IMG/VR virus record: IMGVR_UViG_3300013121_000002
Location: 43,976 to 107,975 of that record
Length of the DNA: 64,000 nucleotides
Direction: 5' to 3' (one strand)
DNA from: a virus
Taxonomy: Duplodnaviria; Heunggongvirae; Uroviricota; Caudoviricetes
The notes below the pieces were generated by a model that was not told the origin of the DNA, searched no databases, and was given only the letters and a program-made list of their open reading frames with translations. The position numbers were made by a program, and so were the translations under genes. This document shows positions 37,182 through 64,000 of the stretch, piece after piece (positions within the stretch are counted from its first letter, which is position 1; every line of letters starts with the position of its first letter).

Positions 37182-38000
37182 TTGAAGTTCGACAACTCCC
37201 TGTTCCTGACCCGCGAGGTCGAACGTGACCTCCTCGTGCGCGCCAAGGCAGGAGATCGGGCGGCGCGCGACCGGCTGGTTCTCGCCCATCGGCCGCAGGT
37301 GATTGGCGCGGCGCGCAAGTTTGCCCGCGTCTACCCCACCATCGACATCGACGATCTCATATCCGAGGGGAACATCGGGTTGATGGCGGCGATCCGGTCA
37401 TTCGACATGGAACAGACCGTGCGCTTCGCGACCTACGCCGTGTACCACATCGGCAACCGGGTCCGGGATTTCATCCTCCGCAACGCAGCGCACGGCGTCA
37501 GCTTCGCGGGCACCACGGCGACGCGGGCGCTGTTTTTCAAATCGCGGATGCTGCTGATGAATGAGTCGGCATCGGGTCGGCCGCTCGCTGAGCAATATCA
37601 GCGGGTCGCTAACAAGCTCGGCGTCACGGTGCGACAGCTAACCGACTTCCTGAACTTCGGCACGTCGTCGCTCGACGCCCCACCACCGGGTGGCACCGGG
37701 GAAGCTGCTCTTTCCTCGGTCGGTGAACTGCTCGTCGATGCAACGGCACCCGACCCGGAGGAGCACACTGACGAGAGCCAGCGGGCGAAGCTGTTGCACG
37801 ACGCTCTGAACCGGCTGGAGCCGCGCGACCGGCTGGTGCTGATCTCGCGCTTCATGAACAACGAGACGCTGGAAGGTGCCGCCGCCACCCTGAAGGTGAC
37901 GCGCGAACGCGTGCGCCAGATCGAGAGTCGGGCACTGCGGCGACTGAAGGATTTGCTGATTGATTTGCAGCCGGAACCGGAACGCACCGCGGCCGAATAA
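37182..38000 (+). CDS. Sigma-70 family RNA polymerase sigma factor
   Basis: Region 2: DDLISEGNIGLMAAIRSFD. Region 4 HTH: TLEGAAATLKVTRERVRQIESRALRRLK. Confidence 0.8.
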   Translation: MKFDNSLFLTREVERDLLVRAKAGDRAARDRLVLAHRPQVIGAARKFARVYPTIDIDDLISEGNIGLMAAIRSFDMEQTVRFATYAVYHIGNRVRDFILRNAAHGVSFAGTTATRALFFKSRMLLMNESASGRPLAEQYQRVANKLGVTVRQLTDFLNFGTSSLDAPPPGGTGEAALSSVGELLVDATAPDPEEHTDESQRAKLLHDALNRLEPRDRLVLISRFMNNETLEGAAATLKVTRERVRQIESRALRRLKDLLIDLQPEPERTAAE

Positions 38001-42888: not shown

Positions 42889-43626
42889 GTGGCGAAACTG
42901 AACCAAATCATTGCCATCGAGAAGGGGATCAAATCCCGGACGTATGGCGAGTTGACCGAAGTCAACAAGGCGATCCAGAAGCCTGACCTGTTCAACGGCT
43001 TCTACAAATCATACCAGTCGCGTGACGACGAAGGCGACGTACTGCCTGCCGAGCGCAAACGCGTCCAGTACAACACCCGCGAGGTGTTACAGCACGTCGA
43101 GCGCCTGTCCACTGAACTCATCGACGTGACGGCGCGCAAGGATTTCACCAACTGCATCGCCAAGGCCGACGTGGTCGTCGATGGGGTTACCATCGTCACC
43201 GGAGCGCCGGTCAGCTTCCTCCTGTTTCTGGAGAAGCAGTTGACCGATCTGCATACGCTCGTCGGCAACCTGCCCGTCCTCGACGAGGCCGAGGCTTGGG
43301 CGCTCGATCCCAATTCCGGGCTCTACAAGACCGAGGGTACGCAGACCCATCGGACCAAGAAGGTCCAGAAGCCCATCGTTCTCTATCCGGCGACGCCGGA
43401 ACACCCGGCGCAGACGCAGATGGTCACGGAGGACGTGATCGCCGGTTTCTGGTCGCAGGTGAAGCACTCCGGGGCGCTGCCGAAACCGAACAAGCTGGAG
43501 CTACTGGAGCGGGTCGAGGAGCTACTGCGCGCCGTCAAGCAGGCGCGCGAGGAGGCCAACATTCAGGAGGAGGTGCCGACGCCTTCGGTCGGCGGTGCCG
43601 TTTTCCAGTACCTGCTCGGGAGCTAA
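42889..43626 (+). CDS. Hypothetical protein
   Basis: 245-aa ORF with an RBS AGGGGAGCTACCGTG upstream and unbiased composition. Confidence 0.5.
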   Translation: MAKLNQIIAIEKGIKSRTYGELTEVNKAIQKPDLFNGFYKSYQSRDDEGDVLPAERKRVQYNTREVLQHVERLSTELIDVTARKDFTNCIAKADVVVDGVTIVTGAPVSFLLFLEKQLTDLHTLVGNLPVLDEAEAWALDPNSGLYKTEGTQTHRTKKVQKPIVLYPATPEHPAQTQMVTEDVIAGFWSQVKHSGALPKPNKLELLERVEELLRAVKQAREEANIQEEVPTPSVGGAVFQYLLGS

Positions 43627-43739
43627 ACGATTACGGTGGTCCTCGATTAGGCAGAGGGGCAACGTCCACTTCACGTCCAGCGGGTAGCTCCAGCGATGGG
43701 GCGGACCCGGTAGCCAATGCGAAAGGACGCCACTAACGA

Positions 43740-44330
43740 AATAAGCTCAGCCTTGTCGTGAATTTGAGTTGCGAACGTGGGGGTTCAAATCCTCCCTCCC
43801 CGACCATGACGGGGAGTGCCGGAACGGTAGACGGGAGTCCCTTCGGGACTTGTTCGCTTCAAACTAAATCTATTCACGCAAGTTGAGCATTGCCGCGCCG
43901 ATCCTATCGAGGTGCGTCGGGTTCCAATTGAGAGGCGCTGGTTCAAATCCAGCCGCGCCCGCCATGTGGGGCGCGTGGTCCAGCGGAAGGGCGCTCAACA
44001 TGAAACTGATCCGACGTATTAAACGCCGAGGGTTGGGAGAAGTCGCGGTACAAGCCCCGGCAGTCTAGGCTAGTGCTGCCGGGGCACCTATCCCAGAGGT
44101 TCCAGCTTGGGGAACGGATCAGCGGCCAAGAGGTTCAAAGGCCACGGACCTGCGGGTAGCTCGACGGAGCAAAACCTGCCAACGCTGATCCAGCAATTCG
44201 TGCTCGGAGAATAGATCACCGGGGACCGAGAGGGGGTCCGCCACCTCCTGTAGAACAGCCCGGTGCAGCTTACGCCTGTCTGCACCGAGCCAAAGCCTAC
44301 CTCCCGGTGATCCCTATCAAGGGATAATCA
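43740..44330 (+). ncRNA. ORF-free region with tRNA-like fragments: two T-arm + 3' acceptor + CCA elements, each immediately followed by its complementary 5' acceptor strand (permuted tRNA-like/Y-RNA-like modules), plus a strong 10-bp hairpin
   Basis: GGGGGUUCAAAUCCUCC-CUCCCCG-A-CCA-uga-CGGGGAG at ~43768-43806. GCUGGUUCAAAUCCAGC-CGCGCCC-G-CCA-ugu-GGGCGCG at ~43925-43967. D-loop-like AACGGUAGA/AGCGG follows each. Hairpin GCCCCGGCAG/CUGCCGGGGC at ~44043-44073. Confidence 0.35.
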
Positions 44331-55018: not shown

Positions 55019-55094
55019 TCCCCGGTAGCTCAACTGGTAGAGCACCCGCCTGTTAAGCGGACGGTTGCTGGTTCGAGCCCGGCTCGGGGAGCCA
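55019..55094 (+). tRNA. tRNA-Asn (GTT) with encoded CCA
   Basis: D-arm GCTCAACTGGTAGAGC. Anticodon loop CTGTTAA. T-arm GCTGG-TTCGAGC-CCGGC. 3' end TCGGGGA-G-CCA. There is one acceptor mismatch, so tRNAscan confirmation is needed. Confidence 0.55.
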
Positions 55095-62554: not shown

Positions 62555-63049
62555 ATGACGGATAACAGGCTGGTTTCACTGGAGGATTGGACTGAAGCGG
62601 AATGCCGGATCGCTCAGAAGATGTTCGAGAAGTTTGGTTACGTCCATCCGACATTCTTCACGGAGAACGCAGATGGTCGCCGCGCTGGCGTGGTTCTTCC
62701 CAACTGGGGAGGAAACAAGGAACTGGCTATCGCAGTGCTCCGCGCGAAGTTCAAGGCTGAAGGCATCCTGCGCTACGTCTCGTTCAGCGAGGCTTGGATG
62801 GTCACGCGCAAGCCGGACGAGCCGCTACCATCTGACCTCAGTAACCAACCAGATCGGATGGAAATCATTATGGTACACAGCGAGGAGCTTGGAGCGCCGC
62901 CACTACTCGGCTACGCCGAGGTCAAGCGCCCCACTGACGGCAAGCCGACCTTCGACCTGCCGACGTTTAGGCGCGATCCCCATTCGACAGGGCGCATGAC
63001 GCGGCTACTGGGCGAGGAAGCGCCAATTCCACAAGCGCAGCAAAACTGA
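62555..63049 (+). CDS. Hypothetical protein
   Basis: 164 aa. Initiation motif GTAGGAGGCTACCATG. Confidence 0.5.
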   Translation: MTDNRLVSLEDWTEAECRIAQKMFEKFGYVHPTFFTENADGRRAGVVLPNWGGNKELAIAVLRAKFKAEGILRYVSFSEAWMVTRKPDEPLPSDLSNQPDRMEIIMVHSEELGAPPLLGYAEVKRPTDGKPTFDLPTFRRDPHSTGRMTRLLGEEAPIPQAQQN

Positions 63050-63074
63050 TACCTGACCCTCTTGACCGCACTAA

Positions 63075-63680
63075 CGAACGCGTCTATCTAGCCGCCAGCC
63101 TCTGGTGTAGAGCACGGTTACTTCACACTTCCAATGTGACCAACGACCGGGTTCGTTATTTCCGAGGCGACCATCATTCCCGCAGGTCGCGGGGAGCGTC
63201 TGGTGTTCGAGCACGGCTACTTCGATTGATAATCGAGAGGTTGTTGGTTCGATCCCAATCAGGCCCCGCAAGGGACTTGTAGCTCAACTGGTAGAGCACT
63301 AAGCCGGGTTCAGCTTTCTTCCGGCGCTCCACCCCGACCTGCGGGAGTGTGTGGTGTGAGGGAGTTGGTGTTAGGTTACGGTTACTTCGGATGAAAGCTA
63401 CGGGCTCTTAACCCGTTCGCTCCATGGTGGTTCAAATCCACCAAACCGGAACCGCCTTTTCCACTCCCTCGCTCCACACACGCAGATCAATTCGAGTGGC
63501 GCGTACCCTCTGGTGCAGATCACGGGTACTTCGCCTCTGGAGCGGGAGGTCGTTGGTTCGAATCCAACCGGGTCCACCATTCTACGGGCCTGTAGCTCAG
63601 CGGTTAGAGCGCCTAACGTAACCGGGATCGTCCTTTCCGAGGATACGCCCCACTCGAATTGATTTGCATTGGCCGCCCCT
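63075..63680 (+). ncRNA. Cluster of tRNA-like / Y-RNA-like (YrlA-type) structured RNAs upstream of a Ro60-like gene
   Basis: Canonical D-arms: GTAGCTCAACTGGTAGAGC at ~63280, GTAGCTCAGCGGTTAGAGC at ~63598. T-arms with encoded CCA: GTTGGTTCGAATCCAACCGGGTCCACCA at ~63560; GGTGGTTCAAATCCACC at ~63427; GTTGGTTCGATCCCAAT at ~63244. None assembles into a colinear canonical tRNA. A tCTGGTGyAGAgCACGGyTACTTCG module repeats four times. Confidence 0.45.
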
Positions 63681-63683
63681 GCT

Positions 63684-63709
63684 CCTACATCCAGAGGTGT
63701 AGGTTTTTT
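63684..63709 (+). terminator. Rho-independent terminator
   Basis: CCUACA-UCCAGAGG-UGUAGG followed by UUUUUU. Confidence 0.55.
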
Positions 63710-63726
63710 CTAACAGGGGAATGACC

Positions 63727-64000
63727 ATGCGTACCAACCGCTCAAGCACTGCTCCTGCGCCGCGCACCCACGAGGGTGCGGTCGCTTCGCGAATCAACGC
63801 CGAGGCTCAGCTTCGACGCTCCGTGATGTCGTGCCTCCTGTGGGAGGACGAGTTCTATGAGTCTGGCGAGGAGATCGCCAAGCGCATTGCCCGCCTCGTC
63901 GGCGAGGTGAAGCCCGAGATCGTTAGCGCCATCGCTATCGAGGCGCGGTCGGACGGCAACCTCCGTCACGTCCCGCTCCTGCTCGCGCGCACGCTGGCGC
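63727..64000 (+). CDS. rsr: Ro60/TROVE-domain (Rsr-like) protein, N-terminal part; continues beyond the window
   Basis: MRTNRSSTAPAPRTHEGAVASRINAEAQLRRSVMSCLLWEDEFYESGEEIAKRIARLVGEVKPEIVSAIAIEARSDGNLRHVPLLLARTLA matches the TROVE N-terminal pattern (LRRFL.LGSEGGTYY...E..A...ALFALA). Confidence 0.55.
   Translation, partial: MRTNRSSTAPAPRTHEGAVASRINAEAQLRRSVMSCLLWEDEFYESGEEIAKRIARLVGEVKPEIVSAIAIEARSDGNLRHVPLLLARTLA

What the first reader, a model, noticed from the sequence alone, without database searches (positions are those of the whole stretch)
63075..64000. Ro60/TROVE-like gene preceded by a terminator-bounded cluster of tRNA-like structured RNAs (Y-RNA-like module)
The ORF starting at 63727 has the TROVE N-terminal signature (LRRSVMSCLLWEDEFYESGEEIAKRIARLV...AIEARSDGNLRHVPLLLARTLA). 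Immediately upstream is a ~600-nt ORF-free region ending in a clean intrinsic terminator. It is full of canonical D-arms and T-arms with encoded CCA that do not assemble into colinear tRNAs, and it contains four copies of a CUGGUGYAGAGCACGGYUACUUCG module. Bacterial and mycobacteriophage Rsr proteins are known to be encoded next to Y-RNA-like tRNA mimics. This looks like a phage-borne Rsr/Y-RNA ribonucleoprotein cassette with several RNA paralogs.
Basis: partly seen in the sequence, partly recalled or inferred. Interest (0 to 1): 0.7.

Follow-up and report, generated by a model that had tools for sequence, protein, structure and literature searches.

The report
Phage Ro60 gene with Y-RNA array
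An uncultivated phage carries the start of a Ro60 (Rsr-like) RNA-binding protein gene, preceded by four tandem tRNA-mimicking Y-RNA-like genes; this is a new example of a cassette already described in bacteria and phages, not a new kind of system.

Summary

- **The RNA array.** Window 63097-63667 (+) holds four tandem structured-RNA units. All four share a stem/internal-loop module, UGGUG(U)YAG...ACGGNUAC paired with CCGG...UUUCC. The motif occurs exactly four times in 64 kb, against 0 expected. An intrinsic terminator follows at 63684-63709.
- **The units.** Units 2 and 4 are YrlA-type: T arm, closed 7-bp acceptor-like stem, then D arm. Unit 4 encodes ACCA in the acceptor loop. Unit 3 is a colinear tRNA-like form and unit 1 a short form.
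- **Comparative support.** A covariance model built here finds the same RNAs upstream of, and on the same strand as, the Ro60 homologue. This holds in 28 of 29 phage or viral loci, and the model gives 219 hits across 79 bacterial-genome loci. Covariation is strong: 95.6% of cells paired against 41-50% in slid controls. The tertiary 15:48 pair also covaries.
- **The ORF.** The ORF at 63727 is cut after 91 aa. It is 58% identical to CcrColossus gp139 (Pfam TROVE above its cut-off; vWA matches just below theirs), and the family profile matches solved Ro60 structures.
- **What is known.** Ro60 with adjacent YrlA RNAs in phages, including CcrColossus, was published in 2014.
- **What goes beyond that.** About a third of the heads, including both in this window, are complete circularly permuted tRNAs with an anticodon-arm look-alike. 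Protein binding and function are inferred, not shown.

The parts
63062..63090 (+). Candidate sigma-70-type promoter of the RNA array (TTGACC, 17 nt, TATCTA). It would start transcription about where unit 1 begins.
   Evidence: Read from the sequence. The consensus scan did not report it because the -10 hexamer ends in A. This part is inferred only, and the phage also encodes its own sigma factor.
63097..63169 (+). Unit 1: a short Y-RNA-like RNA. It has the shared stem/internal-loop module, and its head is a single hairpin at 63123-63139 with a 5-bp stem and the 7-nt loop CUUCCAA.
   Evidence: Model R1 scores 31.3 bits, E 5.8e-7, matching only the module. It holds a motif copy at 63103. Its fold alone is not better than chance.
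63175..63349 (+). Unit 2: a YrlA-type RNA (core 63195-63328) closed by an 18-nt basal inverted repeat. Head, in order: anticodon-arm-like hairpin UUCGA-UUGAUAA-UCGAG, AGGUU, T arm, acceptor-like stem closed by a short loop (CGCAAG), D arm.
   Evidence: R1 87 bits. Rfam YrlA 28.1 bits at 63236-63300. Fold z-score -6.9. Inverted repeat I3. After un-permutation ARAGORN calls it tRNA-Ile(GAU).
63347..63481 (+). Unit 3: a Y-module RNA (core 63360-63468) with a colinear three-hairpin tRNA-like head. The head has a weak D-like hairpin, an anticodon-arm-like hairpin ACGGG-CUCUUAA-CCCGU and a T arm. The unit is closed by a 19-nt basal inverted repeat.
   Evidence: R1 44.3 bits on the module. Rfam tRNA 24.2 bits, below the gathering score of 29. 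Fold z-score -5.9. Inverted repeat I2.
63482..63667 (+). Unit 4: a YrlA-type RNA (core 63505-63644) closed by a 29-nt basal inverted repeat. Head, in order: anticodon-arm-like hairpin UUCGC-CUCUGGA-GCGGG, AGGUC, T arm, 7-bp acceptor-like stem with the loop ACCAUUCUAC, D arm.
   Evidence: R1 109.1 bits. Rfam YrlA 32.8 bits, E 4e-5. Fold z-score -5.4. Inverted repeat I1. It is homologous to the stretch of CcrColossus annotated as 'tRNA-Gln'. After un-permutation ARAGORN calls it tRNA-Gln(CUG).
63684..63709 (+). Intrinsic terminator: 8-bp stem, 4-nt loop, then a T6 run.
   Evidence: Terminator scan. A terminator at this position is present in only 5 of 29 related loci.
63727..64000 (+). First 91 codons of a Ro60/Rsr-like (TROVE family) gene, cut by the end of the window. 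A ribosome-binding site AGGGGA lies at 63715-63720, and an alternative in-frame ATG at 63721.
   Evidence: 58% identity to the CcrColossus TROVE-like gp139. The fragment's database homologues include ones that their sources name '60 kDa SS-A/Ro ribonucleoprotein'. The family profile matches solved Ro60 structures. Pfam finds nothing in the fragment alone.

Best explanation
This is a phage-encoded Ro60 (Rsr-like) gene preceded by an array of four Y-RNA-like non-coding RNA genes of the YrlA kind.

**Shown**
- The four units share a conserved module. It consists of helix H1, an asymmetric internal loop (5' UGGUG(U)YAG, 3' pyrimidine-rich ...UUUCC), helix H2 and the tetranucleotide YUAC.
- On top of the module sit tRNA-like heads. 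Their helices and the tertiary 15:48 pair covary across dozens of relatives.
- The array is almost always found just upstream of the Ro60 homologue, on the same strand.

**Inferred**
- The array is made as one transcript, from about 63097 to the terminator at 63709.
- The 18-29-bp basal duplexes flanking units 2-4 are cut, most plausibly by RNase III, to release the individual RNAs.
- Each RNA docks on the Ro60 ring through its conserved module. This module is the counterpart of the GNCGAAG / GGUCCGA Ro-binding motif.
- The tRNA-like head acts as a handle for a tRNA-recognising partner or an exoribonuclease such as host PNPase. That would give Ro60/Y-RNA/nuclease particles which remodel or degrade structured RNA during infection.
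- Unit 4 has a 7-bp acceptor stem followed by ACCA. It is predicted to be nicked by RNase P and to end in CCA, as shown for M. smegmatis YrlA.
For: **The module**
- It is repeated four times, against 0 expected.
- H1 and H2 covary among the four paralogues themselves (alignments).

**Family-wide structure (model R1)**
- R1 gives 117 hits in the window plus 29 phage or viral loci. All are on the Ro60 strand and nearly all lie within about 900 nt upstream of the gene.
- R1 gives 219 hits with E<=1e-3 in 79 bacterial-genome loci, 218 of them on the Ro60 strand.
- On the 40 best hits, 95.6% of cells pair, against 41-50% when partners are slid. The covariation score is 0.92 against 0.10-0.19, and 30 of 31 pairs show double changes.
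- The 15:48 pair is not part of the model. It is C:G in 26 sequences, U:A in 9 and C:A in 1 (two more have a G at position 48); Fisher p 1.1e-7.

**Other support**
- Rfam YrlA gives sub-threshold hits in the window and in CcrColossus.
- Protein identity is covered.

**Literature**
- YrlA RNAs lie within 4 kb of Ro60 on the same strand in 254 bacteria and 22 phages.
- M. smegmatis YrlA and YrlB come from one precursor, and that YrlA is cut by RNase P and gains CCA (PMC4201824).
- Thermus phage phiLo Ro60 binds two upstream Y-like RNAs and forms a complex with host PNPase (PMC12135203). That paper also states that Y-like RNAs were previously found in CcrColossus.
Against: - No expression, processing or binding data exist for this phage. 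Every functional step is by analogy.
- The published 5' motif GNCGAAN0-1G is not present as such. The window has GGUGUAG or GGUGCAG, and CcrColossus has GGCGUAG.
- Rfam YrlA scores reach less than half of the gathering score.
- The Ro60 ORF is truncated, so its TROVE/vWA architecture is not seen here.
- The covariation alignment was fitted to the model, which inflates pair counts somewhat. The 15:48 pair and the slid controls are not affected by this.
- Long basal stems occur in only 11 of 40 relatives and the terminator in 5 of 29. The processing scheme may therefore be lineage-specific.
- One homologous locus (L005) has no detectable unit.
Confidence: 0.85

Rival explanations
1. The region is a cluster of ordinary, possibly degenerate, tRNA genes. 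Under this reading the Ro60 linkage is coincidental.
For: ARAGORN calls 63503-63579 a tRNA-Gln(CUG) ending in CCA. The homologous CcrColossus stretch is annotated as tRNA-Gln in GenBank. Rfam tRNA gives weak hits at 63378-63450 (24.2 bits) and 63196-63267 (20.2 bits).
Against: - Both Rfam tRNA hits are below the gathering score of 29, and the gathering-level scan reports only the real tRNA-Asn at 55019.
- The acceptor helix that the ARAGORN cloverleaf needs pairs in 43% of cells across 39 relatives. That equals the shuffled and slid controls. The permuted YrlA fold pairs in 95.6%.
- In native order only 6 of 40 units get any ARAGORN call.
- The supposed acceptor and D region is the module shared by all four units, including unit 1, which has neither a T arm nor a D arm.
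Confidence: 0.03
2. The units are circularly permuted tRNA genes. Under this reading they are matured into working tRNAs or split tRNAs that supply the phage's translation. Maturation would involve a cut in the Y stem, ligation, and then RNase P and CCA processing. Ro60 would be at most a processing chaperone.
For: - When the 5' acceptor strand and D arm are moved in front of the remaining head in silico, ARAGORN of 40 units full-length tRNAs.
- 14 of 38 distinct hairpins 5' of the T arm fit a strict anticodon-arm pattern: at least 4 of 5 stem pairs, a 7-nt loop, U at position 33 and a purine at 37. Shuffles give 0.55.
- 6 of 40 acceptor loops start NCCA.
- The loop triplets differ between units.
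Against: - No bulge-helix-bulge motif or splicing endonuclease is evident.
- No RNA ligase was found in the cassette or among the neighbours tested.
- Most acceptor stems are closed by short loops such as UUCG or GCAA, with no CCA.
- About two thirds of the hairpins are not anticodon-like.
- The most conserved part is the Y module, which a tRNA would not need.
- Units 1 and 3 cannot form a tRNA.
Confidence: 0.05
3. The structured region is a cis-acting leader of the Ro60 mRNA, such as an attenuator or autoregulatory binding platform, and not a set of stable trans-acting RNAs.
For: In 24 of 29 related loci no terminator separates the last unit from the start codon, and the gap is usually 30-90 nt. 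The units are therefore probably co-transcribed with the gene there. In the window a terminator sits between the array and the gene, which could serve as an attenuator.
Against: - Units vary from 1 to 8 per locus and differ in head type. This fits gene-like paralogues better than one leader.
- Some loci have units downstream of the gene.
- The tRNA-like tertiary pair is conserved.
- Published YrlA, YrlB and Yrl RNAs accumulate as stable Ro60-bound RNAs (PMC4201824, PMC12135203).
- Processing from a leader and acting in trans are not mutually exclusive.
Confidence: 0.04

Closest known systems
YrlA / YrlB Y-RNA-like RNAs next to bacterial and phage Ro60 (Rsr): Chen et al. 2014, RNA 20:1715, PMC4201824; Rfam RF02553
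   Same: - The RNAs sit on the same strand within 1 kb upstream of a Ro60 orthologue.
- A 5'/3' stem carries a conserved 5' motif followed by YUAY.
- The head order is T arm, closed acceptor-like stem, D arm.
- The 15:48 pair covaries as G:C or A:U.
- There is more than one Y RNA per locus, including a short form without a full tRNA-like domain, like YrlB.
- A 7-bp acceptor stem with a CCA-type loop matches M. smegmatis YrlA.
   Different: - The 5' motif is UGGYG(U)YAG and not GNCGAAN0-1G.
- Rfam scores are under half of the gathering score.
- There are four units here, and up to eight in CcrColossus.
- The stem-loop called 'V' in YrlA is, in about a third of units including both here, a 5-bp/7-nt anticodon-arm look-alike followed by a 5-nt AGGUC variable loop. 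The head is therefore a whole permuted tRNA. The solved Salmonella YrlA lacks an anticodon loop (bioRxiv 10.1101/312249).
Caulobacter phage CcrColossus gp139 (TROVE-like) and its upstream region
   Same: - The proteins are 58% identical over the fragment.
- Unit 4 is about 73% identical in DNA to a CcrColossus unit.
- Both have a tandem array with long basal stems.
   Different: - CcrColossus has eight units and no terminator before the gene.
- The flanking genes are unrelated.
- GenBank annotates part of one unit as tRNA-Gln.
Thermus phage phiLo Ro60 with Yrl1 and Yrl2 (NAR 2025, PMC12135203; PDB 9KOP, 9L5Y)
   Same: A phage Ro60 with Y-like RNAs encoded directly upstream. The protein family profile matches it over its full length (E 2.7e-48). 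The paper shows binding of its Y-like RNAs and a complex with host PNPase.
   Different: As that paper describes them, Yrl1 and Yrl2 have a stem, a large bulge with a CGAA motif, and a second stem. No tRNA-like heads are described for them, and there are two units and not four.
Circularly permuted tRNA genes of some algae and archaea, and two-piece (permuted) tmRNA genes
   Same: The T arm and 3' acceptor strand, sometimes with CCA, precede the 5' acceptor strand and the D arm.
   Different: Here the opening lies between the D stem and the anticodon stem, and it is occupied by a long protein-binding stem. There is no tag reading frame, and no tmRNA call by ARAGORN or Rfam at threshold. There is no evidence of ligation into a working tRNA.

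Membership tests
YrlA (Y RNA-like A) | Encoded within 4 kb of a Ro60 orthologue on the same strand | tested here: met
   The units lie 60-630 nt upstream of the ORF on the + strand. The same holds in 28 of 29 viral loci, and the model gives 219 hits across 79 bacterial loci.
YrlA (Y RNA-like A) | tRNA-like domain ordered T arm, closed acceptor-like stem, D arm, with conserved T-loop and D-loop nucleotides | tested here: met
   Met for units 2 and 4. Units 1 and 3 lack it and resemble the shorter YrlB-type partners.
YrlA (Y RNA-like A) | Compensatory G15:C48 / A15:U48 (Levitt) pair | tested here: met
   C:G in 26, U:A in 9 and C:A in 1 of 38 sequences with letters (two more have G at position 48); p 1.1e-7. 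Unit 4 has G:C and unit 2 has A:U.
YrlA (Y RNA-like A) | GNCGAAN0-1G motif near the 5' end (proposed Rsr contact) | tested here: not met
   The window has GGUGUAG, GGUGUUCG, GGUGUUAG and GGUGCAG. The family consensus is UGGYG-UAG. This is a related motif, not an identical one.
YrlA (Y RNA-like A) | Conserved YUAY just before the V stem-loop | tested here: met
   UUAC, CUAC, UUAC and GUAC in units 1-4. The family consensus is GUUAC.
YrlA (Y RNA-like A) | Reaches the Rfam RF02553 gathering score (69 bits) | tested here: not met
   32.8 and 28.1 bits. CcrColossus units reach 42.3 bits at most.
YrlA (Y RNA-like A) | Bound by Ro60/Rsr in vivo and carrying tRNA-type modifications | not testable with these tools
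   This needs immunoprecipitation and modification mapping.
Ro60 / Rsr (TROVE ring plus vWA domain) | TROVE (HEAT-repeat ring) domain | tested here: inconclusive
   The 91-aa fragment gives no Pfam hit. Homologues 43-74% identical to the fragment exist. All ten of these scanned with Pfam are TROVE-positive above the cut-off. The family profile hits 9KOP at 2.7e-48 and also Ro60 and Rsr structures.
Ro60 / Rsr (TROVE ring plus vWA domain) | C-terminal vWA domain with a MIDAS site | not testable with these tools
   The window ends at codon 91, and the source contig could not be retrieved. A vWA match is seen in 8 of the 10 homologues scanned, mostly below the Pfam cut-off.
Canonical tRNA genes | Colinear cloverleaf reaching tRNA model thresholds and supported by covariation | tested here: not met
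   Rfam tRNA scores 24.2 and 20.2 bits, below 29. There is one ARAGORN call, and its acceptor helix pairs at background level, 43%.
Circularly permuted tRNA genes | The 3' half precedes the 5' half, and the joined product is a complete tRNA | tested here: inconclusive
   The layout criterion is met in silico for 29 of 40 units, including units 2 and 4. Processing signals, ligation and function as a tRNA could not be tested.
Two-piece (permuted) tmRNA | tRNA-like domain plus a tag reading frame, detected by ARAGORN or Rfam | tested here: not met
   ARAGORN makes no tmRNA call. Only fragmentary tmRNA hits of 19-21 bits cover the T arm and acceptor stem.

The most novel reading that the evidence does not exclude
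In this Ro60 subfamily the Y-RNA heads would be complete circularly permuted tRNAs, not merely elbow mimics. Each unit of an array presents a different anticodon-loop look-alike. In this window these are GAU, CUG, CUU and UCC. Some units also carry an encoded CCA that RNase P processing would expose.

The array would then be a panel of tRNA surrogates displayed on Ro60. They could act as decoys or sensors for host enzymes that cut or modify tRNA anticodon loops. Alternatively, they could be chargeable split tRNAs that link Ro60 to translation.

A second, separate cluster of CCA-encoding permuted tRNA-like RNAs sits next to a DUF7873 gene at 43.7-44.2 kb. It may belong to the same biology.
Probability: 0.12. 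Interest if true: 0.75.

Novelty: new member of a known kind. Interest (0 to 1): 0.35.

Why it matters
What the tRNA-like domain of bacterial and phage Y RNAs binds, and why phages carry Ro60 at all, are still open questions.

This locus adds a clean, compact example: four paralogous units of three architectures in about 600 nt, with a terminator. The covariance model made here picks up the same cassette in dozens of viral contigs and in bacterial genomes from Caulobacteraceae, Hyphomicrobiaceae, Acidobacteriaceae and Planctomycetes, where the Rfam model stays below threshold on every unit scanned.

Many heads keep an anticodon-arm look-alike with varying triplets. That gives a concrete handle for testing which tRNA-binding factors are recruited. 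It also fits the published idea that YrlA arose from dimeric tRNA transcripts.

There is a practical point too. Such units are easily mis-annotated as tRNA genes, as with the 'tRNA-Gln' in the CcrColossus record.

Tried and rejected
**Extending the Ro60 ORF.** Exact-pattern scans of viral, metagenome and genome collections with the last 58 nt of the window found nothing. Exact-protein look-ups of three window genes and of the 100%-identical DUF7873 protein P0109 also returned nothing. The full ORF could not be obtained.

**Direct domain assignment.** Pfam on the 91-aa fragment gives no TROVE hit. phmmer against PDB is only marginal (E 0.01). A family profile was needed.

**Finding a close cultured relative.** blastn of the replication module hits only short stretches of about 70% identity in Microbacterium phages.

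**Conserved neighbours or RNA-repair partners such as RtcB or PNPase.** None was found. tblastn of the three upstream window genes against all viral loci gives no hits. Pfam on flanking genes of related loci and on ten other window genes shows nothing related to RNA repair.

**Classifying the V hairpins by minimum-free-energy folding of the isolated segment.** This was unreliable because alternative pairings won. It was replaced by a fixed-register pattern test with a shuffle control.

**The colinear tRNA reading of unit 4.** Rejected by covariation.

**A two-piece tmRNA reading.** Rejected because there is no tag frame and no call at threshold.

**DUF7873.** The structure model is confident (pLDDT 89), but Foldseek against PDB gave no meaningful match (best TM 0.16).

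**Promoter.** The consensus scan reports none. The TTGACC-17-TATCTA site is my own reading and is unverified.
Full report
**1. What is in the sequence**

The stretch 63050-63726 has no ORF longer than 66 aa on either strand. It lies between a 164-aa ORF of unknown family (62555-63049) and an ORF that starts at ATG 63727 and runs off the window.

The pattern TGGTG-N2-4-G-N3-5-ACGGNTACTTC occurs exactly four times in 64 kb, all on the + strand (63103, 63201, 63366, 63511), against 0.00 expected. The core ACGGNTACTTC also occurs four times, against 0.08 expected.

Each copy has a 3' partner of the form (A/G)CCGG...UUUCC (repeat family D6; alignments).

Three long inverted repeats bracket successive units:
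- 63175-63192 with 63332-63349
- 63347-63365 with 63463-63481
- 63482-63510 with 63639-63667

The bracketed segments fold far better than dinucleotide shuffles, with z-scores of -6.9, -5.9 and -5.4. The first unit has no long closing stem and folds no better than chance (z -0.9).

An 8-bp hairpin followed by T6 at 63684-63709 is a terminator-like site.

**2. The four units**

With its filters switched off, the covariance model described in section 4 finds all four units on the + strand and nothing else of note in 62900-63760:

| Unit | Core coordinates | R1 score |
|---|---|---|
| 4 | 63505-63644 | 109.1 bits |
| 2 | 63195-63328 | 87.0 bits |
| 3 | 63360-63468 | 44.3 bits |
| 1 | 63097-63169 | 31.3 bits (E 5.8e-7) |

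Units 3 and 1 match only through the shared module: helix H1, the loop UGGUG(U)YAG, helix H2 and YUAC on the 5' side, and CCG-G-NNN-CG...UUUCC-H1' on the 3' side. Among the four paralogues H1 and the outer part of H2 change in a compensatory way. H2 reads AGC:GUU, AGC:GUU, GUU:AAC and AUC:GAU.

The heads differ between units:
- **Units 2 and 4.** In order: a 5-bp/7-nt hairpin, a 5-nt linker (AGGUU or AGGUC), a canonical T arm, a closed acceptor-like stem and a canonical D arm. This is the permuted order that defines YrlA.
- **Rfam support.** Rfam YrlA matches both below threshold. It scores 32.8 bits (E 4e-5) at 63522-63643 and 28.1 bits at 63236-63300, against a gathering score of 69.
- **Unit 4 acceptor stem.** It is 7 bp (CGGGUCC/GGGCCUG) and its loop begins ACCA. 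Unit 2's acceptor-like stem is closed by a short loop, CGCAAG.
- **Unit 3.** It has a weak D-like hairpin, a 5-bp/7-nt hairpin and a T arm in colinear order. Rfam tRNA scores it 24.2 bits, below the 29-bit threshold.
- **Unit 1.** It carries only a 5-bp/7-nt hairpin, UCACA-CUUCCAA-UGUGA.

**3. The protein**

- Pfam sees nothing in the 91-aa fragment.
- The fragment is 58% identical to the N-terminus of Caulobacter phage CcrColossus gp139. That protein has Pfam TROVE at E 1.2e-17, with VWA_2 and vWA_Ro60 matches just below their cut-offs.
- The fragment's database homologues include several that their sources name '60 kDa SS-A/Ro ribonucleoprotein' or 'TROVE domain-containing protein'.
- Eight full-length homologues from viral contigs are all TROVE-positive above the Pfam cut-off, and six of them also show a vWA match, mostly below the cut-off.
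- A profile of 14 family members, including the window fragment, matches solved structures. These are Thermus phage phiLo Ro60 over its full length (9KOP/9L5Y, E 2.7e-48), human Ro60 (1e-10), Xenopus Ro60 (4e-8) and D. radiodurans Rsr (2e-4).

The gene is therefore a Ro60 family member with high probability. Its own C-terminal architecture cannot be seen. All attempts to retrieve the source contig failed.

**4. Comparative evidence**

*Related isolates.* blastn links the region to giant Caulobacter and Brevundimonas phages. In CcrColossus the 1.4-kb gap before gp139 holds eight tandem units of the same design. In Brevundimonas phage Papperlapapp there are about five. Part of one CcrColossus unit is annotated as 'tRNA-Gln' in GenBank.

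*The model.* I aligned ten YrlA-type units from the three phages (A1). RNAalifold already showed compensatory changes in 22 of 27 pairs. I then built model R1.

*Where R1 hits.*
- In the window plus 29 phage or viral loci it finds 117 hits, all on the strand of the Ro60 gene. Nearly all lie in the roughly 900 nt before the start codon, at 1-8 per locus. One locus, L005, has none.
- In 79 bacterial-genome loci that encode a homologue it finds 219 hits with E<=1e-3, 218 of them on the gene's strand. These genomes include Hyphomicrobium, Caulobacter, Asticcacaulis, Granulicella, Terracidiphilus and Zavarzinella, together with many MAGs.

*Covariation on the 40 best hits (A3).*
- 95.6% of cells form standard pairs, against 41-50% when the 3' partners are slid by 1-3 columns.
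- The covariation score is 0.92 against 0.10-0.19.
- 30 of 31 pairs have changes on both sides.

That alignment is fitted to the model, which favours the structure. Two checks are free of that bias.
- The tertiary Levitt pair (position 48, the last nucleotide before the T stem, with position 15 in the D loop) is not in the model. It reads C:G in 26 sequences, U:A in 9 and C:A in 1, and two more have a G at position 48 (Fisher p 1.1e-7, not corrected for phylogeny). Unit 4 has G15:C48 and unit 2 has A15:U48.
- The acceptor helix needed by ARAGORN's colinear 'tRNA-Gln' pairs in only 43% of cells, the same as the shuffled and slid controls.

**5. Anatomy beyond the published description**

The family consensus reads, 5' to 3':

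H1 - UGGYG-UAG - H2 - GUUAC - UUCG[hairpin] - AGGUC - T arm - 7-bp acceptor-like stem - GUAGCUCAGUUGGUAGAGC - linker - H2' - CG-C-UUGUUCC - H1'

*The hairpin 5' of the T arm.* A fixed-register test required at least 4 of 5 stem pairs, a 7-nt loop, U at loop position 2 and a purine at loop position 6. Fourteen of 38 distinct hairpins fit this anticodon-arm pattern, against 0.55 in shuffles (maximum 4). Eleven of the 14 are followed by exactly five nucleotides, as in class I tRNAs. Both YrlA-type units of the window fit.

*Un-permuting the heads.* I moved the 5' acceptor strand and D arm in front of the remaining head in silico. ARAGORN then of 40 units full-length tRNAs, against 6 of 40 in native order. 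Unit 2 becomes Ile(GAU) and unit 4 becomes Gln(CUG).

*Consequence.* In this subfamily the head is often a whole tRNA, circularly permuted and opened between the D stem and the anticodon stem, where the Ro60-module stem is attached. Six of 40 acceptor loops begin NCCA.

*How this compares with the literature.* The published work calls this hairpin 'V' and equates the Y stem with the anticodon stem. The solved Salmonella YrlA lacks an anticodon loop (PMC4201824; bioRxiv 10.1101/312249). The arrangement seen here fits the authors' idea that YrlA derives from a dimeric tRNA transcript. I could not read that paper's supplementary tables, so I cannot say whether these particular units were listed there.

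**6. Context and transcription**

- The window is phage DNA. It encodes a portal protein, large terminase, family-A-type DNA polymerase, two helicases, an SbcC-like protein, a methyltransferase and a sigma factor. It has no close cultured relative.
- The genes flanking the cassette are not conserved among relatives. No RNA ligase or other RNA-repair gene was found among those tested. The array plus Ro60 therefore behaves as a self-contained cassette.
- A possible promoter, TTGACC-17 nt-TATCTA at 63062-63090, would start transcription at about the first base of unit 1. That would explain why unit 1 alone lacks a basal duplex. This is my own reading and the scan did not report it.
- A terminator between the array and the gene is present in only 5 of 29 loci. 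Elsewhere the last unit ends 5-90 nt before the start codon, which implies co-transcription.
- Basal duplexes of at least 8 extra base pairs occur in 11 of 40 units, mainly in this window and the Caulobacter and Brevundimonas phages.

**7. Mechanism**

*Shown:*
- a family of structured RNAs with a conserved stem-loop module and a tRNA-like head;
- their tight linkage to a Ro60 gene.

*Established for relatives:*
- Ro60/Rsr binds Y RNAs through a conserved 5' motif in the stem.
- YrlA contains tRNA-type modifications.
- M. smegmatis YrlA and YrlB are processed from one precursor. That YrlA, which has a 7-bp acceptor stem, is cut by RNase P and ends in CCA (PMC4201824).
- Phage phiLo Ro60 binds two upstream Y-like RNAs and assembles with host PNPase (PMC12135203).

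*Inferred for this locus:*
- A single primary transcript is cut in the long basal duplexes, with RNase III the obvious candidate.
- Each RNA binds the phage Ro60 through the UGGUGYAG/UUUCC module.
- The heads recruit tRNA-recognising proteins or an exoribonuclease.
- Unit 4 is nicked by RNase P.

I put 0.85 on the identity (a phage Ro60 gene with a Y-RNA-like array), and considerably less on any specific downstream function.

**8. Novelty**

The kind is known. Chen et al. 2014 reported YrlA-like RNAs next to Ro60 in 254 bacteria and 22 phages. The 2025 phiLo paper states that these included mycobacteriophages, CcrColossus and Bacillus phage G.

This window adds a new, uncultivated phage member with a divergent motif that Rfam misses at threshold.

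Three features refine the published picture without forming a new category:
- the size of the arrays;
- the three head architectures within one transcript;
- the complete permuted-tRNA heads with varied anticodon-like loops.

**9. Seen in passing**

A second non-coding cluster at 43627-44330 lies directly downstream of a DUF7873 gene. It holds two or three more permuted T-arm / acceptor / D-arm elements whose acceptor loops encode ACCA or GCCA, but it lacks the Ro60-cassette module.

The same arrangement recurs in all six viral loci with a DUF7873 homologue at 39-75% identity.

The protein models confidently (pLDDT 89), but it has no PDB fold match, no PHROG family and no sequence match to solved structures.

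Whether these RNAs also serve Ro60, or instead work with DUF7873, is unknown.

Noticed in passing
window 43627-44330 (+), with ORF 42889-43626: This is a second non-coding cluster, directly downstream of a DUF7873 gene (Pfam E 6.8e-96). It holds 2-3 permuted T-arm / closed-acceptor / D-arm RNAs: about 43744-43888 (loop ACCA), about 43890-44050 (loop GCCA; Rfam YrlA 30.9 bits; R1 37.1 bits) and about 44108-44190. They lack the TGGTG...ACGGNTACTTC module. The same gene-then-RNAs layout recurs in all 6 viral loci with a DUF7873 homologue (L109-L114). The protein models at pLDDT 89 but has no PDB fold match, no PHROG family and no sequence match to solved structures. It may be a separate protein/tRNA-like-RNA module.
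   Followed up: partly
L001 2983-3050 (CcrColossus JX100810.1 109217-109284): The GenBank 'tRNA-Gln' of CcrColossus lies inside a YrlA-type unit (R1 121.5 bits at L001 2979-3143). It is probably a mis-annotation. ARAGORN makes the same kind of call in the window at 63503-63579.
   Followed up: partly
window 55019-55094 (+): This is a genuine tRNA-Asn(GUU) (Rfam 58.5 bits). Its 21-nt D-arm segment GUAGCUCAACUGGUAGAGCAC is identical to the D arm of unit 2 at 63279-63299.
   Followed up: no
L003 4863-5334, L012 4950-5094, L021 4645-5372: In some viral contigs further R1 hits lie downstream of the Ro60 gene on the same strand. Arrays can therefore flank the gene on both sides.
   Followed up: no
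L005 (IMGVR_UViG_3300025030_001854): This locus has a Ro60 homologue 67% identical to the window fragment over the matched segment, but no detectable Y-like unit within 3 kb on either side, even with the model's filters off.
   Followed up: partly
L110 5043-5340: A permuted (two-piece) tmRNA gene (Rfam tmRNA_permuted, 59.8 bits, above threshold) lies about 1.8 kb downstream of the DUF7873 module in a related viral contig. None is detected in the window.
   Followed up: no
window 37182-38000 (+): The phage encodes its own sigma-70 family factor (regions 2 and 4). Promoters of the RNA array may therefore not follow the host consensus.
   Followed up: no
L030-L108 (bacterial genomes): The same Ro60 subfamily, with 2-7 upstream Y-like units, is common in genomes and MAGs of Acidobacteriaceae, Caulobacteraceae, Hyphomicrobiaceae and Planctomycetes. 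Whether these copies are prophage-borne or chromosomal was not examined.
   Followed up: no
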